A stretch of 64,000 nt of DNA, taken from contig NZ_JASGKL010000004.1 in NCBI RefSeq assembly GCF_049840635.1, positions 380,605 to 444,604 on the forward strand. Reading direction: 5' to 3'. Positions 6,868-43,405 of this stretch are shown here, one piece after another. The notes beneath the pieces are model-generated. The model worked only from the letters and a program-made list of their open reading frames with translations, was not told the DNA's origin and did not search any database. The position numbers and the translations under genes were made by a program. Numbering within the stretch: position 1 is the stretch's first letter; each line of letters starts with the position of its first letter. The stretch comes from Propionicimonas sp. (lineage in GTDB: Bacteria; Actinomycetota; Actinomycetes; Propionibacteriales; Propionibacteriaceae).

Positions 6868-6926
6868 ACCGACCAGCATGGCAGGCCGCCCACGCCCGAA
6901 CTAGCGGAAATCGGACGCGGCCGTGA

Positions 6927-6956: not shown

Positions 6957-6997
6957 TGGCGCAGGTCGGTGACCGGTTCTGGGCCGATCTGCCGAAG

Positions 6998-15416: not shown

Positions 15417-15551
15417 ATGCAGACGCTCCTCGAGGCCGCCGTCTACGACGTGACGCTGCCGGTCGTGGTCGGACTGGTCGCCTTCGGCATCCTGCTGACC
15501 GGGCTCGGTTACGTCCGCCAGATCGGCAAGGGACGGCCGCACGCCAAATGA
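15417..15551 (+). CDS. Small (44 aa) single-TM protein
   Basis: [44 protein letters not shown]; hydrophobic core; ATGA overlap with the nadD start. Confidence 0.6.
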
Positions 15552-20005: not shown

Positions 20006-20015
20006 CGGTGTCCTC

Positions 20016-24044: not shown

Positions 24045-24517
24045 CACAGGAGCACCGCCTCTCGTCGGATGTCGTCGTCCAGCCCGGCCTTGAGTCCGCC
24101 GTACGTGACGAGGTCGACGGGACGGCCGAGGATCTGCTCGAAGGTTCCGAGAAGAGCGAGCAGCTCCTTGATCGCGGCGCCGGGAGGGGCATCGACCAGG
24201 AGATCGATGTCGGAGTCGTCTCGTGCGTCGCCTCGGGCAACCGATCCGAAGACCGCCAGGCGCTCGAACCCCCGAGCTCGTGCGACGTCCACCAGGACCG
24301 GTGCCGCGGCCCTCACCAAGGCTTCCGGATGCACCTTGGTCAGGTCTCGGGATGCCTTGAGTTGCTGGCTCACGGCCGGCTGGCTGATCCCGAGCTTCGA
24401 GGCCACGTCGCGTTGACTCGAACCCGTGGCGAGCAGGGCGCGCAGGGCCAGCATCCTTCGCAACCGCGAGGTCTCCTCGTGGGCCCGCGCGTCGCGGTAC
24501 TCGGCGACCAGACTCAT
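24044..24517 (-). CDS. HTH-fused minimal nucleotidyltransferase (MNT) antitoxin
   Basis: HTH SQRDVASKLGISQPAVSQQL; NTase motif FGSVARGDARDDSDIDL; RPVDLV. Confidence 0.88.
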   Translation of the reverse strand: MSLVAEYRDARAHEETSRLRRMLALRALLATGSSQRDVASKLGISQPAVSQQLKASRDLTKVHPEALVRAAAPVLVDVARARGFERLAVFGSVARGDARDDSDIDLLVDAPPGAAIKELLALLGTFEQILGRPVDLVTYGGLKAGLDDDIRREAVLL

Positions 24518-24585: not shown

Positions 24586-27354
24586 TCAGGGGACGGTGAG
24601 TGGATCGGCGGTGCGGGTTACTGCTGTGTGGTTGGCGCGGTCTCCGGTGACGGTGAGGCTGATCTGGTGGGTCCTGTCGGTGTCGGTGAGTTGGTAGGTG
24701 CTCCGGGTCGCGCCGGCGATGGCGATTCCGTCGCGGAGCCACTGGTGGCGGAAGGTGATCGTGCCGGGTCCCCAGGCGCCCCGGTCGACCCCGAGGGTCT
24801 GGCCCACATCGGGGGTGCCGGTGATGGTCGGCTGGCTGGAGTGGACGGCGCCCTGGGTGATGGCAACGGTGCGCCTGGACGTCTCGGACTCGGTGTGGAT
24901 CCCAGCCGCGTGGCCGGTGACCCGCACCGAGAGGTGCTTGCCGCGGTCGCGGGCGGTGGGTGTGTAGGTCGGCTTGGTGGCGCCGGTGATGGGGTTTCCG
25001 TTGCGGAGCCAGCGGTAGGTGAAGCGTTCCGGGGTGATCTGCCAGGGGTCCATCTGGATGGACAGCTGCTGCCCGGTCTGGGTTGTGCCGACGATCTTGG
25101 GTCGGTGGGTCCAGAACCAGCCCCGGATCACCCTGTCCGACCAAGGCGTCCAGCGGGTGATGGAGATGTAGCCGTCCTTGACGCCGGTGACCTGAGCCCT
25201 GATCCGTTTGCCGAGGTCCTTCGCCACCGGGATGTAGCCCCAGTCGTTGGCTCCGGGGACCACCTTGCCGTTGACGTACCACTGGTACTCGTAGTGGTCG
25301 ACCGCGGGCGTCCAGGGCTTGGCGTACACAGCTGTGGTGTAACTGACCACGGCGCGACCGGACAACCTTGGTGGGGGGATGGTGGTGAAGGCGGCGTCGG
25401 GCCCTGCCCTCTGGATCAGCGTCCCGCTGAACGCCGAGGAACCGTTGGCCTGGGTGAATCCGACGGTGTGGGTGCCGGAGGTGGCGTAGGCGACCTGCCC
25501 GTCGGCATAGGTGGTGTTCGCATCCAGGCTCAGCGCGGGCAGGTCGCCACCGAATCCCCGGATGGTGAGGTCGGTCGGGGTGGCGACGGTGGCGACCTCG
25601 GTCGCGGTGACCTGCTGTCCGTTGGCGGTGACCGTCGTGGTGGCCGTATCGAACGCGGACACGTCGGAGATCTTGTTGTTGCTGAGCGTCATCGACGTGA
25701 GGTGCGGGCTCTGCGCGAGGACGGACACGTCCGTCAGTGCGTTGTTGCGGAGGTCGGCCGTTCGCAGGGCGGTCGCGCCGGTGAGGCCGTGAATGTCGCT
25801 GAGCCCGTTGGAGGCGAGTTCGAGCTGGTCAAGGTCCTGCAGGGCGGTGAAGGCGGGCAGGGCATGCACCTGGTTGCTCGATGCGTGCAGCTCGGTCAGT
25901 GGGGCGCCGGTGAGGGGGCCGAGGTCGCTGATCCGGTTGTTGGTGAGCCACACCGCCGCCAACGAGGGCAGCCCGGCCAGCGCGGTGAGGTCGGTGAGCT
26001 GGTTGTTGGTGGCGCGCAGCGTGGCCAGGGCGGGCAGGTCGGCCAGTCCGTCGGTGCTGGCCAGCTCGTTGTTGATCAGGTCGACCTCGGTGAGCGTGGG
26101 CAGGCCGGAGACGCCATCGAGCGTGGTCAGCTGGTTGTCGTTCAGGTTCAGCGAACTGAGCCTGGGAAGCCGTTCATAGGTTCCGGGGTTGGTGAGCGTG
26201 TTGGTCCGCGCGTCCACGGTGGCCAGGGCGGGGAGGTCGGTCAGCCGCAGATTGGTCAACTTGTTAGAGCTTAGGTTCAGGGTCTGAAGTGCGGGTAGGC
26301 CGGACAGCGCGACATCGGTCAGGTGGTTGTTGGAGGCGTCGAGCGTGGTGAGGCTCGGCGGCGTCCCGATGATGAGGCTGGTGAGCTGGTCGTGCACCAC
26401 GGTGATGCTCGACAGCGACGTCATTCCGCTGAGGTCGGGCAGTCCGCTGAGCCGGCTGTCCCGGATCACGAGCGTGGCCAGGCCGGTCAGGCCGCACAGT
26501 GGTGTCAGGTCGGCGGTGGTGTTGTAGATCTCCAGTTCGGCCATCCTGGACAGCGCCGAGAGCGGGTCCAGGTCGGTCGCGGCGGGAGTGATCAACCACA
26601 GGTGGGTCAGCCCGTTCAGATCCGACAGGGTGGAGAGGTCGGTCAGGTTCTTTCCACCGAGGTAGAGGGTGTCGAGGTTCGGCGCGTGGCCGAGGTGGAG
26701 CTCGGTGAGGGTGTCGTCGTACAGGGCCAGCTTGGTGAGGCTGGTCAGGTCCGACATCCACGAGAAGTCGGTGGTGCCGGTCGTGCCCAGGCTGAGTTCG
26801 GTGAGCGCGGTCAGCCGGGCGACCGGGCCGAGATCCACTGACATGCCGCCCAGATGCAGCTTGCGGAGGGACGGCAGGTCGGTGAGGAAACCGAGGTCGT
26901 CGAGCAGGTGGCCGCTCAGGCTCAGTTCCGTCAGCCCGCTCAGACCGCGCAGCGGTGCGGGGTCCACCGTCGGGCCGCCGGAGATCAACAGCACCTGCAA
27001 GTCGGCAAGACCTGCCAGCGGCGACAGGTCCGTGATCTCCTCCATCGAGAATGAGACTGTCCGGGCGCCCGTGAGGTGCTCGGCCCCGGTGAGGTCGCGG
27101 ATCGGTTCCTCACCAGAATTGTTCCAGCAGGCCACCTCGTCCAGCGAGGCGAGCCGGCTATCGGTGAGCGGAACCTCGCCCGCACCGAGCTCCCTGATCA
27201 AGCAGGCGCGGAACGCCGCGTCCGGCACATTGACGATCGCGTCAGCCCGGGCCGGCAGCGGCCCCAACCCGACCAACGCCAGCGAACACAGCGCCACCAA
27301 CGGCACACGCACCCTCACCACAACCCCCTGCGCAACCCAACCCCATGAATGCAT
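24586..27354 (-). CDS. Secreted internalin-like leucine-rich-repeat surface protein with C-terminal repeats of about 90 aa
   Basis: Signal peptide ending PARA-D, VPDAAFRACL cap, roughly 20 LRRs of type LxxLxLxxNxLxDL, then PxIxG..VGxTL/YQW/YRW repeats; codon usage differs from the backbone. Confidence 0.85.
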   Translation of the reverse strand: MHSWGWVAQGVVVRVRVPLVALCSLALVGLGPLPARADAIVNVPDAAFRACLIRELGAGEVPLTDSRLASLDEVACWNNSGEEPIRDLTGAEHLTGARTVSFSMEEITDLSPLAGLADLQVLLISGGPTVDPAPLRGLSGLTELSLSGHLLDDLGFLTDLPSLRKLHLGGMSVDLGPVARLTALTELSLGTTGTTDFSWMSDLTSLTKLALYDDTLTELHLGHAPNLDTLYLGGKNLTDLSTLSDLNGLTHLWLITPAATDLDPLSALSRMAELEIYNTTADLTPLCGLTGLATLVIRDSRLSGLPDLSGMTSLSSITVVHDQLTSLIIGTPPSLTTLDASNNHLTDVALSGLPALQTLNLSSNKLTNLRLTDLPALATVDARTNTLTNPGTYERLPRLSSLNLNDNQLTTLDGVSGLPTLTEVDLINNELASTDGLADLPALATLRATNNQLTDLTALAGLPSLAAVWLTNNRISDLGPLTGAPLTELHASSNQVHALPAFTALQDLDQLELASNGLSDIHGLTGATALRTADLRNNALTDVSVLAQSPHLTSMTLSNNKISDVSAFDTATTTVTANGQQVTATEVATVATPTDLTIRGFGGDLPALSLDANTTYADGQVAYATSGTHTVGFTQANGSSAFSGTLIQRAGPDAAFTTIPPPRLSGRAVVSYTTAVYAKPWTPAVDHYEYQWYVNGKVVPGANDWGYIPVAKDLGKRIRAQVTGVKDGYISITRWTPWSDRVIRGWFWTHRPKIVGTTQTGQQLSIQMDPWQITPERFTYRWLRNGNPITGATKPTYTPTARDRGKHLSVRVTGHAAGIHTESETSRRTVAITQGAVHSSQPTITGTPDVGQTLGVDRGAWGPGTITFRHQWLRDGIAIAGATRSTYQLTDTDRTHQISLTVTGDRANHTAVTRTADPLTVP

Positions 27355-27440
27355 CCGGCCACCGAGCATGGACGACGGATCCGGTCTCGGCCTCATCTTC
27401 CCGGATCGGACGCCCCCGCGAAGTGGGGCACGTCGGGACG

Positions 27441-27487
27441 ATGGCCAAGTGGCCATCCTGACGCTCAGAGACTGTCCAAGTGGGCAA
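27441..27487. promoter_or_regulatory. Two 7-2-7 inverted repeats upstream of the LRR gene (candidate NarL/LuxR-type sites)
   Basis: ATGGCCA-AG-TGGCCAT (27441-27456) and CTGTCCA-AG-TGGGCAA (27472-27487), 31 bp apart. Confidence 0.45.
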
Positions 27488-27557: not shown

Positions 27558-28190
27558 TCAGCCGCTGGTTGACAGCATCCCGAGCTGGTGTGCCTGCGCC
27601 ACCACCCTGGTGCGGGTGGGTGCATCGAGTTTGCGCATCAGCTCGGCCACGTCGGCCTTCACTGTTGAGGGGGATACGTAGAGCCGGGCGGCGATCTGCC
27701 GGTTGGTCAGGCCGAGGTCGAGCATCTGGAGGACCTGCTGCTCACGCGGGGTGAGTTTCGGCCTGGATCGGCGCGATCTACCGGCGGCCCAGCGCTGCAG
27801 GGTGCCCGGCGGGACAACGCTCATGCCGTCGTTGACCGCTCGGATCGCATGCAGGAGCGCGTGGGGCCGGGTGCTCTTCAGTAGGTAACCGCTGGCTCCC
27901 GCGGCGAGCATGTCCACGATGGTGTCGATGTCGTCGAAGGAGGTCAGCGCCAGGACCCGCGTGGTCGATGTGGCGCGGGTGATCTCGCGGGTCGCATCGA
28001 TGCCGCTCATCCTGTCCATCCGCACGTCCATCAGGACGACGTCGGGGGTGTGCTCCTTCACCAGGTGCAGGCTCTGGAGGCCGTCGGTGCAGGAGCCGAC
28101 GAGGGTCATGTCGTCGGTCGTTCGGAGGTAATCGGCCAGGGATTCTCGCACGAAGAGGTCGTCGTCGACGATCAGTACCCGGACGCTCAC
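27558..28190 (-). CDS. NarL/LuxR-family response regulator
   Basis: VLIVDDD, DVVLMDVRM, LTSFD, GYLLKS, LTPREQQVL HTH. Confidence 0.93.
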   Translation of the reverse strand: MSVRVLIVDDDLFVRESLADYLRTTDDMTLVGSCTDGLQSLHLVKEHTPDVVLMDVRMDRMSGIDATREITRATSTTRVLALTSFDDIDTIVDMLAAGASGYLLKSTRPHALLHAIRAVNDGMSVVPPGTLQRWAAGRSRRSRPKLTPREQQVLQMLDLGLTNRQIAARLYVSPSTVKADVAELMRKLDAPTRTRVVAQAHQLGMLSTSG

Positions 28191-29302
28191 TGGGTTGCCT
28201 CGAGCTCGCGTGCCGCGTGCCCTGGCAGGGGCAGGCTCACCCGGGTCAGCCACCCGCTGTCCGCGCGGCTGGCCTCGACCTGGCCACCGGCGGCACCGAT
28301 GCGTTGCCGCATCCCCCAAAGCCCCATTGGAACACGCCCTTCGCGGTCGAACCGCACGGTCCTGCAGTTGTTGGCGATCTTGAGCACGACCTCACCCTTG
28401 CCCACCTCGGCCGACACCGTGCACGGTCCGTGCTGATCACCGTGCTTGATCACGTTGCTCAGGGCTTCCTCGGCGGCCGCCGCCAAGAGTTGGGCGGTCG
28501 CAGGAGGAATGCCGTCCAGGTCGCCAGCGACGTTCACCGTGGGCTGGAAGCCGTGCCGGGCCAGCTCGGTCTCCGCGGACGAGAGCACCTCGCGAAATGC
28601 CCGCGCAGGCGGGGCGACCTCTCTGGTGTCGTCGGGGCTGCGCAGGACCTCAATGATGTCGCGAAGATAGCCGATCGATTCCGTCGCGGTTCGTGAGACG
28701 AACGACAGGTCCTCCTCGGTTGCCTCACCATGCAACTGGACCCGTTCCGTGGCCATCACCAAAGCGGTGAGCGACCGTGCAACCGTGTCGTGCAACTCCA
28801 GCGCGGTGCGCTGGCGCTGCAGCAGGGTTTCGGCGAGAAGCGCCTCGCGTTGTGCGCGGGTGACGGTCACGAACGCGTTCCCGATTAGCCACAAAACCCC
28901 CATGAAGGTCGCATAGAAGAGTGCCCCGAGCGTCGCGCTGAGCAGGCTCGGCGCGTTCTGAATCGCCAGACCGAACAGGATGACCAAGTAGGCGATCGAC
29001 TCGATCAGCCGCAGCCGGGTCGCGTCCCGCATACCCGAGCCCAGGATCGGAATCAGCAACGCGTACTCGCCCATCGTCGCCCAGCCCGCCGGGATGAACA
29101 GATAGACCGCCAACACCGCCCCGAGGGCAGCGCCGGAAGCCCTCGGCCACCGGCCCGTCGTCGCCGCAACCGCACACGCGACCAGGTCCAGCGCCAACGG
29201 TGGCCACGGGCGCCCAGTGGCAGCATCGAGCGTGATCGTGAGCACCGCCAACAACACGGCGAGGACGATCTCAATTCGCCCAGGCTCGACCAGCCGTCGC
29301 AT
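28187..29302 (-). CDS. Membrane sensor histidine kinase (HisKA_3 type)
   Basis: About 5 TM segments, LELHDTVARSL H-box, EALSNVIKHG N-box, GLWGMRQR; GTGA overlap with the response regulator. Confidence 0.9.
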   Translation of the reverse strand: MRRLVEPGRIEIVLAVLLAVLTITLDAATGRPWPPLALDLVACAVAATTGRWPRASGAALGAVLAVYLFIPAGWATMGEYALLIPILGSGMRDATRLRLIESIAYLVILFGLAIQNAPSLLSATLGALFYATFMGVLWLIGNAFVTVTRAQREALLAETLLQRQRTALELHDTVARSLTALVMATERVQLHGEATEEDLSFVSRTATESIGYLRDIIEVLRSPDDTREVAPPARAFREVLSSAETELARHGFQPTVNVAGDLDGIPPATAQLLAAAAEEALSNVIKHGDQHGPCTVSAEVGKGEVVLKIANNCRTVRFDREGRVPMGLWGMRQRIGAAGGQVEASRADSGWLTRVSLPLPGHAARELEATQ

Positions 29303-29445
29303 CAGATCACCGGAGCCGGCCCGGGTTCGGGGGATATGCACGTGCGCCTCACAGCAGGGGATGAGCTTTCATGGAAGACCGTAATAGAAACGCGGCCGAA
29401 GCGCCGCAGGATCCGCTGTGTGCACCGGAGCCTGTTCGGATGTCA

Positions 29446-29579
29446 TCAACGAGACTCTTCGGTGCAACCTGGCGGTAGGGCCCACCCTCAGCATGCTGCT
29501 GGTCTTGGCGGAGCAATGGACGGGCTGGCGCGCTAGGCCATCGTGTTCCAGACAAAGCGTCTGAACTCAGCGCGGCAGA
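29446..29579 (+). pseudogene. Degenerate duplicate of the 3' part of the 30763..31065 gene and its downstream flank
   Basis: Aligns by eye with 30955-31093 (TCAACGAGACTCTTCGG...CACCCTCAGCATG...GCTGGCGC...GAACTCAGCGCGGCAGA) with substitutions and an indel. Confidence 0.75.
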
Positions 29580-29653
29580 ACCGGATGTTCAGCGCCCCAC
29601 TCGTTGGTAGGGATTTCTCACGGTGTTCGGGCGCGTGTGGGACGCTTCCTGCT

Positions 29654-30055
29654 GTGGTCGAGTGGTTGCGGCGTAGGTTCCGGCGGTGGTTCGGCGACGA
29701 TGAGGCTCCGGATTACGATCTGCCGGACCCAGACTTGGCAGCCTACGATCACGGTTTGGGTGAGCTCCGCCTCGATGGCGAGTTGAAGGGCTATCTGGCC
29801 AGTGTGAGAGTGAGGATGTGGTTCCCCGCTCGGCAGTGGTGGCCGTGGTTCGTGATCGTCTGGGCTGACGGAGGGAAGGACCGCGCCTTCGAGGACTACG
29901 GTCCCAAGTGGTACACCGTTCGTGAACTCGACGCTGGCTATTTCGAGCACTACCCAGACAGTGGCGAGGCCGAGGTGTACGAGTTCAGTTGGCTTGCGCC
30001 CGACGAGGCGGGCGCCAGGTGGACAGAACTCGGCTTGACTGAGGACGACTTCTGA
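29654..30055 (+). CDS. Hypothetical acidic, Trp-rich protein
   Basis: Non-shadow composition; start uncertain (29543 or 29654). Confidence 0.55.
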   Translation: MVEWLRRRFRRWFGDDEAPDYDLPDPDLAAYDHGLGELRLDGELKGYLASVRVRMWFPARQWWPWFVIVWADGGKDRAFEDYGPKWYTVRELDAGYFEHYPDSGEAEVYEFSWLAPDEAGARWTELGLTEDDF

Positions 30056-30762: not shown

Positions 30763-31065
30763 GTGCCGGTCTCGAAGGGCGATGGGCGGGCCCGACCCAT
30801 CCGCTCACGAGCCCGGCAGTTCTGGGCGGGTATGGCAGTTGGCCTCGCCCCCGGACTCATTGATCTCGGCAATGCTCTCGGACTGTACCCATTCGTCCCG
30901 CTGCTCGGGATCGGCCTCATCCTGATCCTTGGCCTCGTCCTGTTGATCGTCGCGTCAACGAGACTCTTCGGCGCCGGCCTGACCGTCGGGTCCACCCTCA
31001 GCATGATGCTGGTCCTTCTTGGCGCAGCAATGAACTGGCTGGCGCACCCGACCATCGTCTTCTAG
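30763..31065 (+). CDS. Small membrane protein (about 3 TM)
   Basis: GGAG upstream of GTG; long hydrophobic stretches. Confidence 0.6.
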   Translation: MPVSKGDGRARPIRSRARQFWAGMAVGLAPGLIDLGNALGLYPFVPLLGIGLILILGLVLLIVASTRLFGAGLTVGSTLSMMLVLLGAAMNWLAHPTIVF

Positions 31066-31153
31066 ACAAGGCGTCCGAACTCAGCGCGGCAGATTCGGGC
31101 GGCGCTTTCCACCGACGCGGTTCGGGCCGCAGCCGGTCTGACATTATTCAGCG

Positions 31154-32302
31154 GTGGATTGTCTTGACCTTGCGATCCGGTCCTTCGCTGACATGAGCAT
31201 GGAGCGGGCGCTTGCCGTCGCGCGGGTCTTCGACGAGTTTCCGAATCTGCGTCCGCGGCGTGTGGGCGGAGACCCGGCACGGATCAAGGTGAAGCCGTCG
31301 ATGGAGGCCGTCGTCACGGCGGCAGGTCTGCCGATCGAGTGGCTGACGGTCCGTCGCAACGAGGGCGACGCGATGGAGCCAGGCGAGATCGACCTGTTGC
31401 CCGGTCGTGGGGGCTGGTCGGGTGAGCAGGAGGACGGTCGATGGACGTACTCCCTGAATGGCCACAGAATCGAGCAGAGCTGGCAGGCGAACACCGTTGC
31501 CGAGCCGGCTGACACCGCGGCTGTCGCCACCCTCTTCGAAGGACTGGTCGTGGCCATCGACGCCGCCTACGGATGCGTCACACCTAGGGTGTGGCGCCCG
31601 CGCCCGCTGTACACCTTGGCTGAGGCCATGTTGCCGGGCGTGTTCTGGTTGAACTACTTCGGTCCAGCCTTTGTCCGTGCTCATCCCGAACTCGCCACCC
31701 TTCTGGGCGCGCGGACGCTGCGGACGGGCGGAGTCCTGGTTCAGACCTCCGGCGAGCCGTGGCAACCCTACGAAGCGGGCACCCCTGCGTGGCAGTCGCC
31801 GCTGCGGACCGTCTTCGGCGACGGAGCGTTCGAGTGGGTGCGACCTAACCCAGCTTTGCCCACGATTGACCAGCATGTCAGGGCGTCCCCTGGAACGCAG
31901 GAGATGCCGTGGATCCCGTGGCTGGCAACCAGGGCCGCCGATGACCGGGCCCGGAAGCACGCGGCTGCACGCAAGCGGCTGGCCGCAGCCAGCCAGGGGT
32001 GGGCGCAACCGACTCTGGCGGACGACGCTGTCGAGTGGTCAACGTCCTTCGATCTGGACGACTGGCGAGCGTTCGCGAGATACCTGACCCGACAGCTGCG
32101 CGGGGACCTGATCACCACGATCGGTAGGGCCGTCATCTCGGTCATCACCACCGCGCCCGCAGAGCAGGAAGACAGCATCACCATGGATACCCAGCTCGGA
32201 CCGATCCGTCTTGGCTGGTTCATCGACGACGAGAATGTAGTCGACCTCTACATCTGGGGCCCTCCCCAGGTGAGCGCTCTGTGCGACGCGTGGCCTGCCT
32301 GA
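31154..32302 (+). CDS. Hypothetical protein, possibly immunity-protein-like
   Basis: 382-aa ORF with non-shadow composition; LPGVFWLNYFG segment recalls polymorphic-toxin immunity proteins (weak, by eye). Confidence 0.6.
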   Translation: MDCLDLAIRSFADMSMERALAVARVFDEFPNLRPRRVGGDPARIKVKPSMEAVVTAAGLPIEWLTVRRNEGDAMEPGEIDLLPGRGGWSGEQEDGRWTYSLNGHRIEQSWQANTVAEPADTAAVATLFEGLVVAIDAAYGCVTPRVWRPRPLYTLAEAMLPGVFWLNYFGPAFVRAHPELATLLGARTLRTGGVLVQTSGEPWQPYEAGTPAWQSPLRTVFGDGAFEWVRPNPALPTIDQHVRASPGTQEMPWIPWLATRAADDRARKHAAARKRLAAASQGWAQPTLADDAVEWSTSFDLDDWRAFARYLTRQLRGDLITTIGRAVISVITTAPAEQEDSITMDTQLGPIRLGWFIDDENVVDLYIWGPPQVSALCDAWPA

Positions 32303-32550: not shown

Positions 32551-32577
32551 AGGCCTCCGAATGTGCCTCTGACGAGG

Positions 32578-32650
32578 TGGAGCTAACGGGATTCGAACCC
32601 GTGGCCTCTTCCATGCCATGGAAGCGCGCTACCAACTGCGCCATAGCCCC
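32578..32650 (-). tRNA. tRNA-Ala (GGC)
   Basis: GGGGCTA acceptor stem, CTTCC-AT-GGC-AT-GGAAG anticodon arm, GGTTCGAATCC T-arm; CCA not fully encoded. Confidence 0.97.
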
Positions 32651-32714: not shown

Positions 32715-34232
32715 TCACTCCTTCAAGGTCATCGTGACCTTGTAGGTCAGCCTGAGGAGCTTCTCCGTCTGGTTCTTGCACTTCTCCAACTGGTAGTACT
32801 TCGTCGAGCCGACGAGGCGGGCGATCTTGCCGTCCACGACCTTGTCGATCGTGAGGGTGCGAACGCTCCGCGCCGGGTTGTCGGTGCTGATCACCTTGCC
32901 CGTGTCGGTCCAGACGCACTCGCTGTCGAACCGGTCGTCCTGGGTCCAGCCGTCGGCGGTGCGGATCGTCGGCACCGACCGGTCGCCGATCTGCATCACC
33001 GTGCTGCACCCCGCCTGGTCACAGGTCGTGGTCACGGTGCGGACCTCCTTCGACTTCTCGCCGACCTTGATCCGCGGCACATTGGACTTGGTGAGCACCG
33101 TCACGTACACGTAGTCGCCGTTGAACCCCAGTTCCAGCGGCGTGGTCGGCGTCGGCGACGGCGTCACGCTCATCGTCGGGGACGCCGACGTGGTCAGGAC
33201 CGGCGCGGTGAACGCCTCGGGCTCCTTGTCCTTCTGCGCGCCCGGATGGGCGATCGCGATCCCGATCCCGCCGATGACGATCCCTCCGACGACGACCGGG
33301 ATCAGCGTGCGCAACCGGCTCCCGGTCTTGACCGCGTTGCCGATCACCCCCGTCCCGGTCGCCCCCGCGTCACCGCCGGCCAGGAATGCCGCGTTCCCCG
33401 ACAGGCTCCCCGGCAGCGCACCGGCGCCCGCCTCGGCCGCCACCGTCGCTGTCGCCGTCGAGGCTGCCCCGACACCGACCGCGGACGCGACCGCGGCGCC
33501 GATGCCCTCCAGCGTCCACCACAACGGGCCGTACGCGCGCTCCGCCGCGTGCGACAACTCCGCCATGAAGGCGCCGGCGTCCCCGGGTCGAGCGGACGCA
33601 TCCGCGTCCGTCGCCCTCGTGAGCACTGCACCCACCCCGCCGTCGACCGGACCCGCCTCGAGGAGCTCCGCGAACACCTTCGCCGCGGCGAACACGTCCG
33701 CCCGCGGGTCGGGGGCCGCCCCCGCGGCCACCTCCGGTGCCGCGTACTCGTCCGTCGCCGCCACCTCCGGGTCGGCCGCCCACGCGGCCGCGTCCACCAG
33801 CTTCGGCACCCCCTCCAGCGACAGCATGACGGTCGCCGGCGACACCAGTCCGTGCACGACCTCCGCCCCATGCAGCGAGGCCAGCCCGGTGAGCACCCCT
33901 CGCGCCACGCCCAGGGACTGTGCCGTCGACAGCGTGTGCTCCTGCGTCAGGGCGCCGAGCGAGACGCCCTCGACCCACTCCTCGACGAGCCATGAGCGGC
34001 CCTGGGCGTCGCGGACCGGCTCGTCGACCCGCGCCACGTTCTCCCCGGCGAGGTCGTGCACCCTGCCGAAGTCCGGACCTGTCTCCTCCGGATGGGTCGA
34101 GAGGTGGGCCAACTCTTTGAGCACCACCTCGTCGCCCCGGTCGGCCGTGGCCCTCCAACGCGCCCCGAACCGTCCCCCCGGCAACTGCTGACCCAGCGTG
34201 AATCCACCAATTTCCACAGCGCCCCCCGACAC
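32715..34232 (-). CDS. Membrane Ser/Thr kinase-like protein, probable pseudokinase
   Basis: VVLKE, LVEEWVEG, YAAPEV, DVFAAA kinase-fold motifs, but the HRD loop reads HGLVSPAT and DFG reads DAA; one TM and an ectodomain with 4 Cys. Confidence 0.75.
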   Translation of the reverse strand: MSGGAVEIGGFTLGQQLPGGRFGARWRATADRGDEVVLKELAHLSTHPEETGPDFGRVHDLAGENVARVDEPVRDAQGRSWLVEEWVEGVSLGALTQEHTLSTAQSLGVARGVLTGLASLHGAEVVHGLVSPATVMLSLEGVPKLVDAAAWAADPEVAATDEYAAPEVAAGAAPDPRADVFAAAKVFAELLEAGPVDGGVGAVLTRATDADASARPGDAGAFMAELSHAAERAYGPLWWTLEGIGAAVASAVGVGAASTATATVAAEAGAGALPGSLSGNAAFLAGGDAGATGTGVIGNAVKTGSRLRTLIPVVVGGIVIGGIGIAIAHPGAQKDKEPEAFTAPVLTTSASPTMSVTPSPTPTTPLELGFNGDYVYVTVLTKSNVPRIKVGEKSKEVRTVTTTCDQAGCSTVMQIGDRSVPTIRTADGWTQDDRFDSECVWTDTGKVISTDNPARSVRTLTIDKVVDGKIARLVGSTKYYQLEKCKNQTEKLLRLTYKVTMTLKE

Positions 34233-34302
34233 CCAGAACCGGCTGTGAGGATGCTATGGGCGTCCGAATCGCGCTGAGTATCGGCAATGCTGCTACCTGG
34301 CC

Positions 34303-35487
34303 TCAGGGAGCGTACGGCCCGGCCTGCGACCACCACGCGAACAATTCACCAAACGACAAGTCCGGGTCGGCCGCGGACGCCACGATGGACTGCTCGGGAG
34401 CGATCCACGCGAACACGCTGTAGGCGTTGGCGTCCCGATAACAGCGCAGCACGCCGAACGGGCTGCCCTCGGAACGCTCGTCCAGCGCCTCGCCCGGGTT
34501 CTGGGTACAGTCACCGGACTCCGCGGGGCTCCCGGCGTAGTAGCCGCGGAACGCCTCCTGTGCCGCCCCTGCGTCCCCGTACTGCAGGTAGAACGCGTAG
34601 CGCGGGCCCCCACCGGCGGCTGCCGGGGAGCACTGAACCGCGACGACGAGCCCGTTCGCGAGCGCAGCGTCCGTCGGAACCAGTCGCTTGCAGGTCCCGC
34701 GGAAGGACGCGGGCGCCCTGGCCTTGAGCGCACCGGTGGTCGTCGCCGGAGGCACCGGAGGCAGGGGAGTGGCGCTCGTCGACGTGGCGGTGACGGTGGG
34801 CCTCGGGGACGCGACGGTCGCCGGCACTGTCCTCGCGAACCACAGCCAGCCGCCCACGCCACAGGCCAGCGCCACCGCAACCCCGACGATGACGGGCAGT
34901 GTCGAACGGCGTCGGGCAGGGACGGAGAGCGCCGCCGGCGTGCGCGCCGGCGCGGCCGCGTCCTTGTCCCACCGGTCGGCGAACTCGGCGGGCGCGTCGG
35001 CCCCGGGCGGGACATCGTGGTGGGACGCGTGCTCGATGGCGGCGACGAGGTGGGCGAGGTCCGCCGTGAACGACTCGAAGCGCAGCGGCGTGGACTGACG
35101 GCTGACCAGGGGACGGAGGCTCTCCGGCAACGCTTCGGCCGCCGGCAGCACCGCGCCGTCCACCAGCACCGGGATCACCGGGACGTTCCTGGCCAGCGCG
35201 GTCGTGATCTCGGCCGCCACCCAGTCCTCGGGGTCGTCGATGCGTCGACGTCCGTCCGCATCGGTGACGGTCGCCCAGCGCTCACCGATGAACGCCAGCA
35301 GCACGTCGCAGCCACCGATGGCCCGACGCAGGTACTCGGTGAAGTCGACACCCGGCGGAATGGTGTCGATGTCCATGAACAGCTCGTACCGGTCGGCCAG
35401 CTTGTCCGCCGCCCGCCCCGCGACGTGCTGGGAGTCCGCGCGCCGGTAGCTCAGGAACACCCGCGCGCGCCCGGTCGCCGTCACCAC
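34303..35487 (-). CDS. TIR-domain protein with TM helix and Cys-containing C-terminal ectodomain
   Basis: VFLSYRRAD, FMDIDTIPPGVDF, DWVAAEI, VIPVLVD; TM LPVIVGVAVALACGVGGWLW. Confidence 0.85.
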   Translation of the reverse strand: MVTATGRARVFLSYRRADSQHVAGRAADKLADRYELFMDIDTIPPGVDFTEYLRRAIGGCDVLLAFIGERWATVTDADGRRRIDDPEDWVAAEITTALARNVPVIPVLVDGAVLPAAEALPESLRPLVSRQSTPLRFESFTADLAHLVAAIEHASHHDVPPGADAPAEFADRWDKDAAAPARTPAALSVPARRRSTLPVIVGVAVALACGVGGWLWFARTVPATVASPRPTVTATSTSATPLPPVPPATTTGALKARAPASFRGTCKRLVPTDAALANGLVVAVQCSPAAAGGGPRYAFYLQYGDAGAAQEAFRGYYAGSPAESGDCTQNPGEALDERSEGSPFGVLRCYRDANAYSVFAWIAPEQSIVASAADPDLSFGELFAWWSQAGPYAP

Positions 35488-35629: not shown

Positions 35630-36364
35630 TCAGCCGGTCAGGCGGCGGGCGTGGCGGTCGAGGAAGATCCGGTGGACGGTGATCAACAGCGCCAGCCACG
35701 CAAGGCCGAACAGCCACGCGAACACCACGTCGGTCAGCCAGTGGTGCCCGAGGAAGACCCGGCTCAGCCCCATCGCCAGCGCCCAGAGCACGGCACCAAG
35801 GACCGCGCAGACACGCTGCCACGCACGATCGGCGAGCCACACCACCAGGTAGGCCAGCATGCCCGCGACCACCGTGCTGTTCAGCGTGTGGCCGGACGGG
35901 AACGAGAAGCTCTCCTCGAACGGCGGGACGGCGTCGACCAGCGGCGGACGGCTGCGTCCGACCCAGGCCTTGCCGACGATCGTGAACGTGATGCTCCCCG
36001 CGGCGGCCACCAGCATCAGCACAATGATCGTCCGCCGGCGGTAGGTCAGGTACAGCGCGCCCATCAGGACGAGCCCGATCACCACCATCGGCACGGTCGT
36101 CCCCAGCTGGGTGAACGCGGTGACCACGGTCTCCGAGAGCGGGGTGCGCAGCCGGATCATCGCGTCGAGGACGGGGCGGTCGAGGCCCGCGACGCCGTCA
36201 TCGGCGGCCACAGCCTCGTAGACCGAGGCGCTGGCGAGGATCAGCAGGGCGAAGAGCATCCCACCGACCAGCCCGGTGAGGCCGATCGCTGTGCCCGTCC
36301 GCACCCTGACGCGGGAAGCCGGCGGCGTGGCGTCCCCTTCCGCCTCGGGCACCGGTCTGGCCAT
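35630..36364 (-). CDS. PAP2 family membrane phosphatase
   Basis: KAWVGRSRP, SFPSGH, SRVFLGHHWLTDV. Confidence 0.92.
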   Translation of the reverse strand: MARPVPEAEGDATPPASRVRVRTGTAIGLTGLVGGMLFALLILASASVYEAVAADDGVAGLDRPVLDAMIRLRTPLSETVVTAFTQLGTTVPMVVIGLVLMGALYLTYRRRTIIVLMLVAAAGSITFTIVGKAWVGRSRPPLVDAVPPFEESFSFPSGHTLNSTVVAGMLAYLVVWLADRAWQRVCAVLGAVLWALAMGLSRVFLGHHWLTDVVFAWLFGLAWLALLITVHRIFLDRHARRLTG

Positions 36365-36477
36365 TGGTCGAGGGTACCGGAGGCGCGGGGCCGGCCCGGA
36401 ATACAGCCCGCACCGCCGGCGGTTGGTGCCTTCTGAACCCGGGTACCGGGTCACCACCCAACGAAAGGCAGGCAACG

Positions 36478-41045: not shown

Positions 41046-41891
41046 TCAGTGCCTGTGGTCGAGCCCGATGTCGAGGACGCGGGCGGAGTGGGTCAGCCAG
41101 CCGACCGAGATCAGGTCGACGCCGGCTTCGGCGAGCGGGACGGCGCTGGCCGGCGTGATCCGTCCGGATGCCTCGGTGACCAGGCGTCCGGCCACCATCG
41201 CGACCGCCTCGCGCAGCAGGTCGGGGCCCATGTTGTCGAGCAGGACGGCGTCCACGCCGAGGGGGAGCAGCTCCTCGAGCTGGGCCAGCGAGTCGACCTC
41301 CACCTCGATCTTGACCAGGTGGCCGACGTGCGCCTTCGCCGCGGCGACGGCCGGGGTGATGCCGCCGGCGACCGCGATGTGGTTGTCCTTGATCAGGACC
41401 GCGTCGTCGAGGCCGAACCGGTGGTTGCTGCCCCCGCCGGCGACCACCGCGTGCTTCTGCAGCGCGCGCAGGCCGGGGATCGTCTTGCGGGTGTCGGCGA
41501 CCCGGGCGCGCGTGTGGGCGATCGCGTCCGCGATGGTGGCCGTGCCGGTGGCGACGCCGGACAGGTGGCCGAGGAAGTTGAGCGCCACCCGTTCGCCGCT
41601 GAGCAGGCCGCGGGCGGGCCCGGTGGCCGTGCCGATCACGGTGCCGGGCTGGACGCGGCTTCCGTCGGGCAGCAGGTCGGTGACCGCGATCCGGGGGTCG
41701 ACGAGTTCCCAGGCCAGGCGTGCGCAGTCGGTGCCGGCGACCACGCCCGGCTCGCGGGCGACGAGGTCGACGGTGGCGGTCGCGTCGGCGGCGATGATCG
41801 CGTCGGTGGTGATGTCACCGGCCCGGCCGAGGTCCTCCAGAAGGGCCGCGCGGACGAGCGGTTCGATCACGAGCCGCGGCAGGGCCCTCAC
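41046..41891 (-). CDS. nadC: Nicotinate-nucleotide pyrophosphorylase (carboxylating)
   Basis: EDLGRAGDITT, DTRKTIPG, HRFGLDDAVLIKDNH, LLDNM, EASG. Confidence 0.96.
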   Translation of the reverse strand: MRALPRLVIEPLVRAALLEDLGRAGDITTDAIIAADATATVDLVAREPGVVAGTDCARLAWELVDPRIAVTDLLPDGSRVQPGTVIGTATGPARGLLSGERVALNFLGHLSGVATGTATIADAIAHTRARVADTRKTIPGLRALQKHAVVAGGGSNHRFGLDDAVLIKDNHIAVAGGITPAVAAAKAHVGHLVKIEVEVDSLAQLEELLPLGVDAVLLDNMGPDLLREAVAMVAGRLVTEASGRITPASAVPLAEAGVDLISVGWLTHSARVLDIGLDHRH

Positions 41892-43405
41892 CGGACGCTC
41901 CCGGACGCCTCGACCCGCGGGAGGTCGACGGTGGCGTCGGGGTGCACGAGGACGTGCCCGGCGAGCGGCGCGGTCTCGGGGAAGTCGAGGCGGGTGTGGC
42001 CGCCGCGGGACTCCTGCCGGCGCAGCGCGGCCCCGACCAGTAGGTGGCCGACCAGTCCCGCGTCGTGGTTCCGGTAGGGCTCGAGGGCGGCCAGGGCCGA
42101 GCGCAAGCCGTCCGCGTCCCTCAGGACGCCGGCGCCCCCGCTGACGATGTCGCGCACGGCGTCCACCACCGGGTCGGGCGACCACCCCTGCGGGTCGGGG
42201 AAGGTGCGCGACGGGGCCGGGGTGCCCGCCGACACGCGCGTATCGCGCCAGTGCCGGGCCACCCTGCGTCCGCACACGACCGCCTCCAGCAGGGAGTTGC
42301 TGGCGAGCCGGTTCGCGCCGTGCAGGCCGGTGGACGCGACCTCGCCGGCGGCGTAGAGGCCGGGCACGGTGGTCGCTCCGTCGAGGTCAACCTGGACGCC
42401 ACCCATGTGGTAGTGGGCGGCGGGACGCACCGGCAGGAGGTCCTTCGCCGGGTCGAGGCCCGCAGCCAGCGCGGTGGCGTGGATCGACCCGAACAGTTCG
42501 GCGAACCGCTCGCCGGGCTCCTTCGTCGCGTCCAGGAACACCCGGTGGCCGGACTGGAGCTGAGCCCACTCGGCGCGGGAGACGATGTCGCGGGCCGACA
42601 GCGGGTTGCGCAGCACCCACTCGCCGCGTTCGTTGACCAGGATCGCGCCCTCGCCGCGGACCGCCTCGCTGACCAGGGGCATCGGGTCGACCCCGACGTC
42701 GAGGGCGGTCGGGTGGAACTGCACCATCTCGATGTCGCGCAGCACCGCGCCCGCGCGGTGGGCGAGCGCGAGGCCCTGGCCGCGGGACGACAGCGGGTTG
42801 GTGGTGTGCAGGAACAGCCCGCCCACGCCGCCGGTCGCCAGCAGCACGGTGTCGCTGCGCAGTTCGACGAGGCCGTCCGGGGTGTCGACGAGCACGCCGA
42901 CGACGCGTCCGGACTCGGTGAGGACCTCGCGGGCGGGGCTGTGGTCCCACAGCGAGACGGACCCCAGGCGGCGGGCGGCGTCCACCACGGTCTGGAGCAG
43001 CTCCGCGCCCGTCCGGTCGCCGTGGGCGTGGACGATCCGCCTGCGGCTGTGGGCTCCCTCCAACCCGAGCCGCAGGCGGCCGTCGCCGGCACGATCGAAG
43101 TGGGCGCCCTGCGCGGTGAGCCAGCCGATGGCGTCCGGGCCGGCGGCGGTGAGCCTCGCGACCACGTCCGGGTCGCACAGGCCCGCACCGGCGGAGAGGG
43201 TGTCCAGGGCGTGCAACTCGGGGGAGTCGTCCGGGCCGACGGCGGCGGCGACTCCGCCCTGCGCCCAGCCGGTGGACGTTCCGGTGCTGACCGCGCCCGC
43301 GCTGAGCACGACGCAGGGGAGCGGGGCGAGTTCGATGGCGGCGGTGAGCCCGGCGAGCCCCGCGCCGACGATGACCGGCCCGCCGGCTTCCACCACGGTG
43401 GTCAC
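41888..43405 (-). CDS. nadB: L-aspartate oxidase
   Basis: GAGLAG, WAQGGVAA, QFHPT, SEAVRGEG, AHYHMGG, GANRLASNSLLE. Confidence 0.95.
   Translation of the reverse strand: MTTVVEAGGPVIVGAGLAGLTAAIELAPLPCVVLSAGAVSTGTSTGWAQGGVAAAVGPDDSPELHALDTLSAGAGLCDPDVVARLTAAGPDAIGWLTAQGAHFDRAGDGRLRLGLEGAHSRRRIVHAHGDRTGAELLQTVVDAARRLGSVSLWDHSPAREVLTESGRVVGVLVDTPDGLVELRSDTVLLATGGVGGLFLHTTNPLSSRGQGLALAHRAGAVLRDIEMVQFHPTALDVGVDPMPLVSEAVRGEGAILVNERGEWVLRNPLSARDIVSRAEWAQLQSGHRVFLDATKEPGERFAELFGSIHATALAAGLDPAKDLLPVRPAAHYHMGGVQVDLDGATTVPGLYAAGEVASTGLHGANRLASNSLLEAVVCGRRVARHWRDTRVSAGTPAPSRTFPDPQGWSPDPVVDAVRDIVSGGAGVLRDADGLRSALAALEPYRNHDAGLVGHLLVGAALRRQESRGGHTRLDFPETAPLAGHVLVHPDATVDLPRVEASGSVR

What the first reader, a model, noticed from the sequence alone, without database searches (positions are those of the whole stretch)
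34303..35487. Membrane-anchored TIR protein with an extracellular sensor-like domain
Seen: an N-terminal TIR domain retaining the Glu in DWVAAEI, a linker, one TM helix, a Thr/Pro stalk and an ectodomain with four Cys ending in LFAWW. It lies 70 bp upstream of a pseudokinase with the same topology. Established: bacterial TIR domains use this Glu to cleave NAD+, either as cell-killing effectors or to make signals (Thoeris, CBASS). Inference: a receptor-like transmembrane NADase paired with a pseudokinase, next to a tRNA-linked island, is a candidate undescribed surveillance or immune system.
Basis: partly seen in the sequence, partly recalled or inferred. Interest (0 to 1): 0.68.

Follow-up and report, generated by a model that had tools for sequence, protein, structure and literature searches.

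The report
Membrane TIR enzyme paired with pseudokinase
A soil actinobacterium carries a conserved two-gene unit: a membrane protein with a SARM1-like NAD+-cleaving TIR domain inside the cell and a sensor-like domain outside, always followed by a catalytically dead receptor kinase. It looks like an undescribed surface receptor that signals through NAD+, and its link to immunity is unproven.

Summary
ORF 34303-35487(-) encodes an N-terminal TIR_2 domain, one strong TM helix, a Pro/Thr stalk and a 4-Cys C-terminal ectodomain. ORF 32715-34232(-), 70 bp downstream, encodes a Hanks-type kinase with HRD>HGL, catalytic Lys>Ser and Asn>Thr, then a TM helix and its own 4-Cys ectodomain.

New findings:
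- The TIR is closest in sequence to the SARM1 TIR, and the catalytic Glu and other residues needed for SARM1 activity are invariant.
- The TIR>pseudokinase order is kept in all 20 distinct orthologous loci examined, across at least five unrelated housekeeping neighbourhoods. It is absent from 65 loci and two paralogues that have related TIRs but other C-termini.
- The TIR ectodomain belongs to an unmodelled actinobacterial family (536 representatives) that is often fused to active Ser/Thr kinases.
- The pseudokinase resembles M. tuberculosis PknI in both its domains.

I found no defence genes, integrase, att repeat or phage copies, so "immune system" and "tRNA-linked island" are not supported.

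Best reading: a heteromeric surface receptor whose output is clustering-activated NAD+ cleavage. It is a new variant of a known kind, and it is untested biochemically.

The parts
34303..35487 (-). Gene for the membrane-anchored TIR protein (394 aa, including the stop codon 34303-34305)
   Evidence: ORF. GC3 is 0.89. About 45 full-length orthologue clusters exist.
35023..35460 (-). Cytoplasmic SARM1-like TIR domain (about residues 10-155). Its motifs are VFLSYRR (35440-35460), the BB-loop DIDTIPPGVDF (35341-35373) and DWVAAEI (35206-35226).
   Evidence: Pfam TIR_2, 52.2 bits. The best PDB sequence hits are all SARM1 TIR, E 6e-6.
35209..35211 (-). Codon GAG for Glu93, the equivalent of the SARM1 catalytic Glu642
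   Evidence: It aligns as DWVAAEI to DWVHKEI. It is invariant in alignments A1 and A7. Codon checked.
34966..34983 (-). Conserved juxtamembrane motif FADRWD (Trp173 invariant), function unknown
34837..34899 (-). Single transmembrane helix (residues 197-217), N-terminus inside and C-terminus outside
   Evidence: Kyte-Doolittle peak of 2.14, with RRR on the N-terminal side.
34732..34836 (-). Pro/Thr/Ser/Ala-rich stalk (residues 218-252), variable in length and sequence among orthologues
34306..34731 (-). Extracytoplasmic alpha/beta 4-Cys domain (residues 253-394; Cys266, 286, 327, 349). It belongs to a family not modelled in Pfam and shared with Ser/Thr receptor kinases.
   Evidence: AF2 pLDDT 93.8. 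No Pfam hit. 536 representatives at E<=1e-3. Among 85 long members, 23 carry Pkinase and 9 carry TIR_2.
34233..34302 (-). 70-bp intergenic spacer without a terminator-like site, so probable co-transcription
   Evidence: Co-transcription is inferred.
32715..34232 (-). Gene for the receptor pseudokinase (505 aa by the longest ORF, 500 aa by the database call)
33513..34214 (-). Cytoplasmic pseudokinase domain. It keeps the GGRFGA loop (34161-34178), the beta3 Lys in VVLKEL (34110-34127) and AAPE (33732-33743). HRDxKxxN is replaced by HGLVSPAT (33825-33857) and DFG by DAA (33780-33797). It ends in the conserved motif AERAYGPLWWT (33513-33545).
   Evidence: Pfam Pkinase, 44.9 bits. Residue-level alignment to StkP. 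The orthologue alignment shows L/V/T/D/S/E at the catalytic-base position.
33249..33305 (-). Transmembrane helix of the pseudokinase (residues 310-328)
   Evidence: Kyte-Doolittle peak of 2.51. The Gly/Ala-rich segment at residues 244-268 reaches only 1.44.
32718..33128 (-). Extracytoplasmic all-beta 4-Cys domain of the pseudokinase (residues 369-505; Cys404, 409, 439, 485)
   Evidence: AF2 pLDDT 92.8, eight strands. The best compact structural match is the M. tuberculosis PknI sensor domain 5xlm, TM 0.52, prob 1.00, E 0.02. No Pfam hit.

Best explanation
The two genes encode the two subunits of one cell-surface receptor. Each subunit is a single-pass protein with its N-terminus inside the cell, and each exposes a small disulfide-stabilised domain outside the membrane. 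The TIR subunit is the output. Its SARM1-type TIR domain is catalytically competent but, like other TIR NADases, needs TIR-TIR assembly to form an active site. The pseudokinase subunit does not phosphorylate anything. It acts as a co-receptor or allosteric scaffold that keeps the TIR subunits apart or brings them together, depending on what the two ectodomains bind. When an extracytoplasmic cue is bound, the TIR domains cluster and cleave NAD+. That either lowers NAD+, causing growth arrest or dormancy, or makes an ADP-ribose-derived signal. The likeliest cue is an envelope-derived or environmental molecule.

Shown: the domain architecture, the conserved catalytic residues, the conserved degeneracy of the kinase, the obligate gene pairing, and the reuse of the TIR ectodomain on real receptor kinases.

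Inferred: physical interaction of the two proteins, NADase activity, activation by clustering, the nature of the ligand, and the physiological outcome.
For: 1. Enzyme-like TIR. The only PDB sequence hits are SARM1 and TIR-1 TIR domains, E 6e-6. SARM1 Y568, D594, G601, W638 and E642 are needed for its NADase activity (PMC8266388). They align to Y14, D39, G46, W89 and E93 here. All five are invariant or nearly so in 22 orthologues. Y14, R15, D39, G46, F49 and E93 stay invariant in 29 relatives with unrelated C-termini.

2. Topology. Each protein has one strong TM segment with positive charges on the N-terminal side, then a Pro/Thr stalk, then four invariant Cys in a confidently folded domain.

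3. Obligate pairing. The pseudokinase follows the TIR gene in 15 of 15 genome loci and in 5 further loci. The flanks are unrelated: rpsT/holA/comEC; rmlA-D/ferrochelatase; peptidases M14 and M16; GT2/GH81/Rpf; RNase T/MFS. In the reciprocal direction, the three pseudokinase orthologues I looked up all have the TIR gene or its ectodomain remnant upstream. Eight more clusters sit on contigs of the same length as TIR orthologue contigs. No adjacent kinase is present in 65 loci with related TIRs but other C-termini, nor in two paralogues.

4. Conserved pseudokinase. The catalytic-base position is L/V/T/D/S/E, and the catalytic Lys and Asn are lost in all orthologues. The beta3 Lys, a GGRxG loop and APE are kept.

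5. Sensor role of the ectodomain. The family has 536 representatives. Among 85 long members, 23 are Pkinase fusions (best E 9.5e-47), and others carry FHA, trypsin or caspase domains. Named members are Ser/Thr kinases of Actinocatenispora and Frankia.

6. The partner resembles the receptor kinase PknI in both its kinase domain (E about 1e-6) and its sensor fold (TM 0.52).
Against: There is no biochemical, expression or interaction data. The only sequencing runs found share 5-6% of words with the locus and were not used.

The ligand is unknown. The TIR ectodomain has no significant structural match; the best is the PknH sensor at E 0.097, TM 0.29.

No downstream receptor for a TIR-made signal is encoded nearby, so the outcome of NAD+ cleavage is open.

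The pair is patchy: only 15 species-level genomes in the GTDB scan carry it. That fits an accessory function as well as a physiological one.

A borderline hydrophobic Gly/Ala segment in the pseudokinase (KD 1.44) leaves a small doubt about its topology.
Confidence: 0.45

Rival explanations
1. Anti-phage abortive-infection system. The ectodomains detect phage adsorption, injection or phage-inflicted wall damage, and the TIR then depletes NAD+ to kill or arrest the cell. This would be a self-contained, Thoeris-like system without a separate effector.
For: Bacterial TIR NADases are best known from defence, as in the Thoeris types surveyed in bioRxiv 10.64898/2025.12.03.692087. There are domain-level PADLOC and NCBIfam hits to ThsB and ThcB4. 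The pair has a patchy distribution and sits in different genomic positions. In the window it borders a strain-specific, lower-GC stretch.
Against: The model scores are only domain-level: ThcB4 scores 44.7 bits against a cut-off of 220, and ThsB1 matches residues 9-65 only. No ThsA-like, SLOG, Macro or CD-NTase partner is present. None of eight characterised neighbourhoods holds restriction, Cas, Abi or integrase genes (plus the window). Synteny GlgP-GSDH-OsmC-(PAP2)-TIR-pseudokinase-tRNA-Ala is kept down to 61% identity, which indicates vertical inheritance. There are no copies on 2.9 million viral contigs.
Confidence: 0.2
2. The TIR domain is a non-enzymatic adaptor. The pair is a branch of the Ser/Thr-kinase signalling network. 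The pseudokinase is phosphorylated by, or docks onto, active kinases that carry the same kind of ectodomain, and the TIR mediates protein-protein assembly only.
For: The TIR ectodomain family is shared with many active Ser/Thr kinases and with FHA proteins. Actinobacterial membrane pseudokinases such as MviN act as phospho-dependent scaffolds (PMC12599244). Many TIR domains act as scaffolds (PMC7075850).
Against: The Glu and the other SARM1 residues needed for activity are invariant over a wide radius. That is hard to explain without catalysis. No active kinase, phosphatase or FHA gene is linked to the pair.
Confidence: 0.15
3. The TIR makes a nucleotide second messenger, such as a cADPR isomer, and the pseudokinase is its receptor. 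The degenerate nucleotide pocket, which keeps the beta3 Lys and an invariant Arg-containing GGRxG loop, binds the TIR product and relays it.
For: The beta3 Lys and the GGRxG loop are retained while every phosphotransfer residue is lost. This suggests the pocket is kept for binding, not catalysis. The genes are strictly coupled. TIR-made cADPR isomers act as signals in Thoeris.
Against: This is pure inference. No known signal-binding domain is present, and the pseudokinase has no recognisable output domain of its own. Pocket conservation could equally reflect fold stability.
Confidence: 0.12
4. The two genes are neighbours by descent only and work independently.
For: There is no direct evidence of co-transcription or interaction.
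Against: The same order and a short spacer are kept in 20 of 20 loci, while everything around them changes. The pairing is restricted to this TIR orthogroup.
Confidence: 0.05

Closest known systems
SARM1 / TIR-1 TIR domain (animal NAD+ hydrolase)
   Same: It is the closest solved relative by sequence, E 6e-6 over residues 9-129. The SYRR motif, the BB-loop Asp and Gly, and the W-x-x-x-E catalytic motif are shared. Residues shown to be needed for SARM1 activity are conserved here.
   Different: SARM1 is a soluble ARM-SAM-TIR octamer regulated by NMN and NAD+. Here the TIR is N-terminal, tethered to a TM helix, and followed by an extracytoplasmic domain. There are no ARM or SAM domains.
Thoeris ThsB and other bacterial defence TIRs (TIR-SAVED, TIR-STING)
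   Same: All have a TIR fold with a catalytic Glu. There are domain-level hits to ThsB1, ThcB4 and SAVED_TIR models.
   Different: Scores are far below family cut-offs. There is no effector or sensor partner of those systems and no defence-island context. The partner here is a membrane pseudokinase, which none of the described Thoeris types I-XI has: 'kinase' occurs 0 times in the systematic survey.
Toll-like and IL-1 receptors with IRAK/Pelle kinases and pseudokinases
   Same: By analogy, each is a single-pass receptor with an ectodomain outside and a TIR inside, working together with a (pseudo)kinase.
   Different: The topology is inverted: the TIR is N-terminal and the ectodomain C-terminal. 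There are no LRR or Ig domains. The TIR here is of the enzymatic SARM1 type, not an adaptor type. There is no death-domain link. This is a resemblance of design, not homology of the system.
M. tuberculosis PknI (single-pass receptor Ser/Thr kinase)
   Same: The pseudokinase's kinase domain hits PknI structures at E about 1e-6. Its ectodomain's best compact structural match is the PknI sensor domain 5xlm, TM 0.52, prob 1.00. Both have a kinase-TM-small-sensor layout.
   Different: The fold E-value is only 0.02, with about 8-10% identity. Here the HRD Asp, the catalytic Lys and the Asn are lost. As far as I know, PknI is not paired with a TIR gene.
Actinobacterial membrane pseudokinase families (ActPs1-3, MviN)
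   Same: These are catalytically degenerate Hanks-type domains followed by a TM segment, found in actinobacteria, with proposed scaffold roles (PMC12599244).
   Different: This one keeps the beta3 Lys and a Gly-rich loop, unlike the published descriptions of ActPs1-3. Family membership was not testable here. TIR is not mentioned in that review.
PknH-type extracytoplasmic sensor domain
   Same: It is the top (but non-significant) structural hit for the TIR ectodomain. Both are small alpha/beta actinobacterial sensor domains with two predicted disulfides.
   Different: E 0.097, TM 0.29, and no Pfam PknH_C hit. It is not a member on this evidence.

Membership tests
TIR domain (Pfam TIR_2, PF13676) | Profile match above the curated cut-off | tested here: met
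   52.2 bits against a cut-off of 28, E 1.1e-13, residues 10-116
Catalytic (SARM1-type) TIR NADase | Catalytic Glu in the W-x-x-x-E motif, plus the residues needed for SARM1 activity (Y568, D594, G601, W638) | tested here: met
   E93, Y14, D39, G46 and W89 align to them. They are invariant or nearly so in alignments A1 and A7. Their functional role in SARM1 is taken from PMC8266388.
Catalytic (SARM1-type) TIR NADase | Measured NAD+ cleavage that depends on the Glu | not testable with these tools
   This needs an enzyme assay.
Thoeris | ThsB-family TIR at equivalog level | tested here: not met
   NCBIfam ThcB4 scores 44.7 bits against a cut-off of 220. PADLOC ThsB1 matches only residues 9-65.
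Thoeris | Adjacent effector gene (ThsA SLOG/Macro or another signal-activated effector) | tested here: not met
   The only conserved neighbour is the pseudokinase.
Thoeris | Protection against phage | not testable with these tools
   This needs a phage challenge.
CBASS / TIR-SAVED | CD-NTase gene and a SAVED or other cyclic-nucleotide sensor fused to the TIR | tested here: not met
   No such Pfam domains occur in the protein or its neighbours. The SAVED_TIR PADLOC hit covers the TIR part only, E 1e-4.
Hanks-type Ser/Thr protein kinase (active) | Protein kinase fold | tested here: met
   Pfam Pkinase, 44.9 bits against a cut-off of 31.7. PDB hits include StkP, PknI, PknA and PknB.
Hanks-type Ser/Thr protein kinase (active) | Catalytic HRD Asp, catalytic-loop Lys and Asn, and DFG Asp | tested here: not met
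   HRDLKPQN of StkP aligns to HGLVSPAT. The base position is L/V/T/D/S/E across orthologues. DFG is DAA here and GFG in others. It is therefore a pseudokinase.
PknI-like sensor domain | Same fold as 5xlm | tested here: inconclusive
   TM 0.52 both ways, prob 1.00, but E 0.02 and 8-10% identity.
PknH_C sensor domain (PF14032) | Profile or fold match | tested here: not met
   No Pfam hit even at E<=10. Not among the families matched by 85 relatives. Foldseek E 0.097, TM 0.29.
Toll-like receptor | N-terminal LRR ectodomain, TM helix, C-terminal adaptor-type TIR | tested here: not met
   The domain order is inverted, there are no LRRs in this protein, and the TIR is of the SARM1 type.
tRNA-integrated genomic island | Integrase plus a direct repeat of the tRNA 3' end bounding the island | tested here: not met
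   No integrase domain occurs in ORFs between 23.3 and 32.5 kb. The only tRNA-like repeat is a 13-16-nt T-arm match with no 3' end.

The most novel reading that the evidence does not exclude
This is a bacterial 'inverted Toll-like receptor'. It would be the first TIR enzyme whose activation is gated from outside the cell, by a heteromeric ectodomain pair shared with the Ser/Thr-kinase sensor repertoire. It would convert an extracellular cue into an NAD+-derived second messenger, which the partner pseudokinase reads with its degenerate nucleotide pocket. That would be a complete transmembrane signalling pathway built from a TIR and a pseudokinase, independent of phage defence.
Probability: 0.12. 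Interest if true: 0.85.

Novelty: new variant of a known kind. Interest (0 to 1): 0.58.

Why it matters
Bacterial TIR enzymes are known as cytoplasmic parts of anti-phage systems and as secreted effectors. SARM1-type TIRs are known as intracellular metabolic sensors. A TIR NADase wired as the cytoplasmic output of a surface receptor would add a third mode: outside-in control of NAD+ or of NAD+-derived signals. The strict coupling to a receptor pseudokinase would also give bacterial pseudokinases, which are largely unexplained, a concrete testable job.

The pair is small, has clear point mutants (E93A), and has a culturable carrier (Microlunatus panaciterrae). The hypothesis is therefore directly testable.

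The work also defines an unmodelled ectodomain family, with 536 representatives, used by many actinobacterial receptor kinases. Its ligand is unknown.

Tried and rejected
- A word-index search with the pseudokinase ectodomain alone found nothing, not even the window's own protein. This is a limit of the method, not evidence of absence.
- A profile of the TIR ectodomain against PDB sequences gave only chance hits (USP7, E>=0.7).
- Foldseek of the TIR ectodomain against PDB and BFVD gave nothing significant.
- Two metagenome scans for the reciprocal linkage test failed. The first keyed on the low-complexity stalk, and the second found no relatives. One alignment was too diverse to use. I replaced this test with look-ups of pseudokinase orthologues.
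- The island hypothesis was rejected after a repeat search and an alignment of the only tRNA-like repeat.
- The promoter and terminator scan of 32.4-36.7 kb found no sites. This is uninformative for a 70%-GC actinobacterium.
- The search for sequencing runs found only runs sharing 5-6% of words, so I attempted no expression analysis.
- Rfam found only the tRNA.
- I considered and rejected a link between the TIR and the nearby NAD genes (nadE, nadD, nadA-C). It is not conserved in other loci, and nadD sits in its usual obg-proA-nadD cluster.
- I considered a second TM helix in the pseudokinase (residues 244-268). It is unlikely: KD is 1.44, and the stalk and the conserved Cys residues follow the later helix.
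Full report
**1. What is in the sequence**

The window is about 70% GC. Real genes can be told from the many spurious ORFs by third-position GC.

ORF 34303..35487(-) encodes 394 aa (GC3 0.89).
- Residues 10-116 match Pfam TIR_2 at 52.2 bits, cut-off 28.
- Next comes a linker with a conserved FADRWD motif.
- There is one strong hydrophobic helix, residues 197-217, with RRR on its N-terminal side.
- A Pro/Thr/Ser stalk follows (residues 218-252).
- The last 140 or so residues form a C-terminal domain with four Cys (266, 286, 327, 349).

ORF 32715..34232(-), 505 aa, starts 70 bp after the TIR stop.
- It matches Pfam Pkinase at 44.9 bits, cut-off 31.7.
- A Gly/Ala-rich linker follows the kinase domain.
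- It has one strong helix, residues 310-328.
- A Pro/Thr stalk and a 137-residue domain with four Cys follow.

tRNA-Ala(GGC) follows at 32576..32650(-). LFAWW is near the C-terminus, not at it.

**2. The TIR domain looks like an enzyme of the SARM1 type**

A sequence search of the domain against all PDB chains returns only SARM1 and C. elegans TIR-1 TIR domains, best E 6e-6. In that alignment:
- FLSYRR pairs with SARM1 FISYRR (Y568, R569, R570).
- DIDTIPPG pairs with the BB-loop DVEKLEAG (D594, G601).
- DWVAAEI pairs with DWVHKEI (W638, E642).

Mutations of Y568, D594, G601, W638 and E642 reduce SARM1 NAD+ hydrolase activity, and E642 is the proposed catalytic residue (PMC8266388, read). The equivalent residues are invariant or nearly invariant in 22 full-length orthologues. 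Y14, R15, D39, G46, F49 and E93 remain invariant in 29 relatives whose C-terminal parts are unrelated, such as beta-propellers and TPRs. Conservation of this kind over such a radius is what catalysis would impose. The activity itself is not shown.

**3. The partner is a conserved pseudokinase**

The alignment to the solved kinase StkP puts HGLVSPAT opposite HRDLKPQN and D-A-A opposite DFG. The catalytic base, the catalytic-loop Lys and the Asn are therefore all missing.

In 13 orthologues taken from genome loci:
- The base position is L, V, T, D, S or E.
- The Lys and Asn positions are always Ser/Pro-type and Thr/Ser.
- The DFG Asp is Gly in half of them.
- The beta3 Lys (V-x-L-K), a GGRxG loop with an invariant Arg, and the APE motif are kept.
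- A motif AER-x-x-G-x-x-WWT closes the domain.

The degeneracy is therefore old and maintained, not a recent decay.

**4. The pairing is the strongest result**

A scan of one genome per species (185,579 species) with the orthologue alignment gave 15 loci with a full-length orthologue (L001-L015). It also gave 65 loci with a related TIR domain but a different C-terminus.

tblastn with the window's proteins shows the pseudokinase, both its kinase domain and its ectodomain, immediately downstream of the TIR gene in 15 of 15 loci. Five further distinct loci reached by exact protein look-up show the same. re-found two of the 15.

Close relatives (61-79% identity) keep the window's order GlgP-GSDH-OsmC-(PAP2)-TIR-pseudokinase-tRNA-Ala. 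In the more distant loci nothing but the pair is shared. The neighbours are:
- rpsT, holA, comEC, comEA and leuS in Microlunatus panaciterrae.
- rmlA-D, ferrochelatase and a RyR-domain gene.
- Peptidases M14 and M16, hemerythrin and UDG.
- A GT2/GH81/Rpf-like cluster.
- RNase T, MFS and aldo-keto reductase.

Two loci carry two tandem pseudokinase copies (L014, L089).

In the reverse direction, three pseudokinase orthologues that I looked up all have the TIR gene upstream. In one case it is a damaged remnant of the TIR ectodomain at a contig end. Eight other pseudokinase clusters lie on contigs of the same length as TIR orthologue contigs.

By contrast:
- None of the 65 loci with other TIR-TM proteins has an adjacent kinase. 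One has a kinase 9 kb away.
- Two paralogues lack a kinase neighbour. One of them, P0052, carries the same ectodomain family.

The unit is therefore this particular TIR protein plus this particular pseudokinase.

**5. The ectodomains**

Neither ectodomain matches any Pfam model, even at E<=10.

The TIR ectodomain:
- With 22 orthologues as alignment, AlphaFold2 gives a confident alpha/beta model (pLDDT 93.8).
- It has no significant match in the PDB. The best is the PknH sensor domain at E 0.097, TM 0.29.
- It has no significant match in viral structures.

The pseudokinase ectodomain:
- It folds as eight beta-strands (pLDDT 92.8).
- Its best compact match is the sensor domain of M. tuberculosis PknI (5xlm, TM 0.52 both ways, prob 1.00, E 0.02). 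PsbO barrels give the lowest E-value, 7e-4, but with poor superposition.
- PknI is also among the best sequence hits of the kinase domain. The partner may therefore be a PknI-like receptor kinase that lost catalysis.

An exhaustive profile search of 1.84 billion representative proteins with the TIR ectodomain found 536 proteins at E<=1e-3, some with two or three tandem copies. Of 85 long ones, 23 carry a canonical protein kinase domain (best E 9.5e-47). Nine carry TIR_2, three FHA, two trypsin-like peptidase, two HSP70 and one caspase. No Pfam family covers the shared domain. Named members are Ser/Thr kinases of Actinocatenispora sera and Frankia. The domain is thus a reusable extracytoplasmic module of actinobacterial signalling proteins, which fits the label 'sensor-like'.

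**6. Is it a defence system or part of an island?**

Evidence against a defence system:
- PADLOC and NCBIfam give only domain-level hits. ThsB1 covers residues 9-65. ThcB4 scores 44.7 bits against a cut-off of 220. The kinase hits to PD-T4-6 and MAD6 are generic.
- No Thoeris or CBASS partner is present.
- None of the eight characterised neighbourhoods contains defence or mobility genes.
- Neither the ectodomain nor the full protein has relatives on IMG/VR viral contigs.

The window itself is a core chromosomal region: rne, nadE, rplU, obg, proA, nadD, then later glgP and nadA-C.

The stretch from about 23.3 to 32.5 kb beyond the tRNA has lower GC and is absent from the relatives. It encodes an HTH-nucleotidyltransferase, a 956-aa LRR protein, a LuxR/HisKA_3 two-component pair, DUF5063 and unknown proteins. 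I found no integrase and no repeat of the tRNA 3' end. It is a variable region, not a demonstrated island, and the TIR pair lies on the conserved side of the tRNA.

Against a purely housekeeping role, the pair is patchy: 15 species-level genomes, all Propionibacteriales-like by title.

**7. Mechanism proposed**

TIR NADases need self-association to build their active site. This is established for SARM1, and the residues involved are conserved here.

A TIR tethered to the membrane next to an ectodomain that is elsewhere attached to receptor kinases is most simply read as a receptor whose output is TIR clustering. The obligate pseudokinase has the same topology and its own ectodomain. It is most simply read as a co-receptor or scaffold that sets the oligomeric state of the TIR subunit.

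I put this at 0.45. The rivals are:
- A self-contained abortive-infection system: 0.2.
- A non-enzymatic adaptor in the Ser/Thr-kinase network: 0.15.
- A version in which the pseudokinase pocket reads a TIR-made nucleotide: 0.12. This overlaps with the main model.
- Unrelated neighbours: 0.05.

Interaction, activity, ligand and outcome are all inferred.

**8. Novelty**

I searched the held literature for bacterial TIR plus pseudokinase and for membrane-anchored TIRs. I also read four papers for relevant terms: a systematic survey of TIR defence systems, a TIR classification, the Aravind-group conflict-system survey, and a 2025 review of bacterial pseudokinases. None describes this pair. Absence from these sources is not proof of absence.

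The parts are known kinds: a TIR NADase and a receptor pseudokinase. The combination and the topology are new, so I rate it a new variant of a known kind.

Noticed in passing
window 24586-27456 (-): A 956-aa protein with many leucine-rich repeats (LRR_4 E 1.4e-47). The DNA shows seven copies of a 58-nt repeat, spaced 63-258 nt apart. It lies in the lower-GC variable stretch next to a LuxR/HisKA_3 two-component pair (27558-28319 and 28187-29341, both -). A large bacterial LRR protein about 7 kb from a TIR gene is curious, but it is absent from all related loci.
   Followed up: partly
window 24044-24517 (-): A small HTH plus nucleotidyltransferase (NTP_transf_2/Polbeta) protein of the MNT-antitoxin type. 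I did not look for a HEPN partner.
   Followed up: no
window 29446-29584 and 30955-31098: A direct repeat of about 150 nt (84-95% identity), 1.5 kb apart. Each copy spans the 3' end of a small membrane-protein-like ORF and the 5' region of an unknown gene (29543-30055 and 31154-32302). This suggests a duplicated gene cassette in the variable region.
   Followed up: no
window 1679-3718 (-), 15548-16195 (+), 41046-44388 (-): NAD+ biosynthesis genes nadE, a nadD-like gene, nadC and nadA all lie in the same 64 kb as the putative NADase, with room for nadB between nadC and nadA. The link is not conserved in other loci with the pair, so it is probably coincidence.
   Followed up: partly
L083 12832-15192, L093 3007-5379, L089 13963-14442: In one subclade the pseudokinase is followed by a gene for a large protein with a RyR (ryanodine-receptor repeat) domain. 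In L014 and L089 the pseudokinase is duplicated in tandem.
   Followed up: no
L094 1-441: Upstream of one pseudokinase orthologue, at a contig end, the TIR-type ectodomain reading frame is damaged. It has a stop codon, an internal stretch of about 35 residues is replaced, and no TIR part is visible. This is either an assembly artefact or a decaying copy.
   Followed up: partly
window 6923-7966 (+): A protein with weak AbiEi_4 (antitoxin-like) and DUF559 matches sits among core genes, between an ada/alkA-like gene and rplU.
   Followed up: no
window 18566-21647 (-): An adjacent DUF1501 and DUF1800 gene pair, a commonly co-occurring pair of unknown function.
   Followed up: no
window 35630-36475 (-): A PAP2-family lipid phosphatase lies 143 bp upstream of the TIR gene on the same strand. 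It is kept in the closest relatives (L001, L003, L005) but not beyond. This is a possible envelope link for this subclade only.
   Followed up: partly
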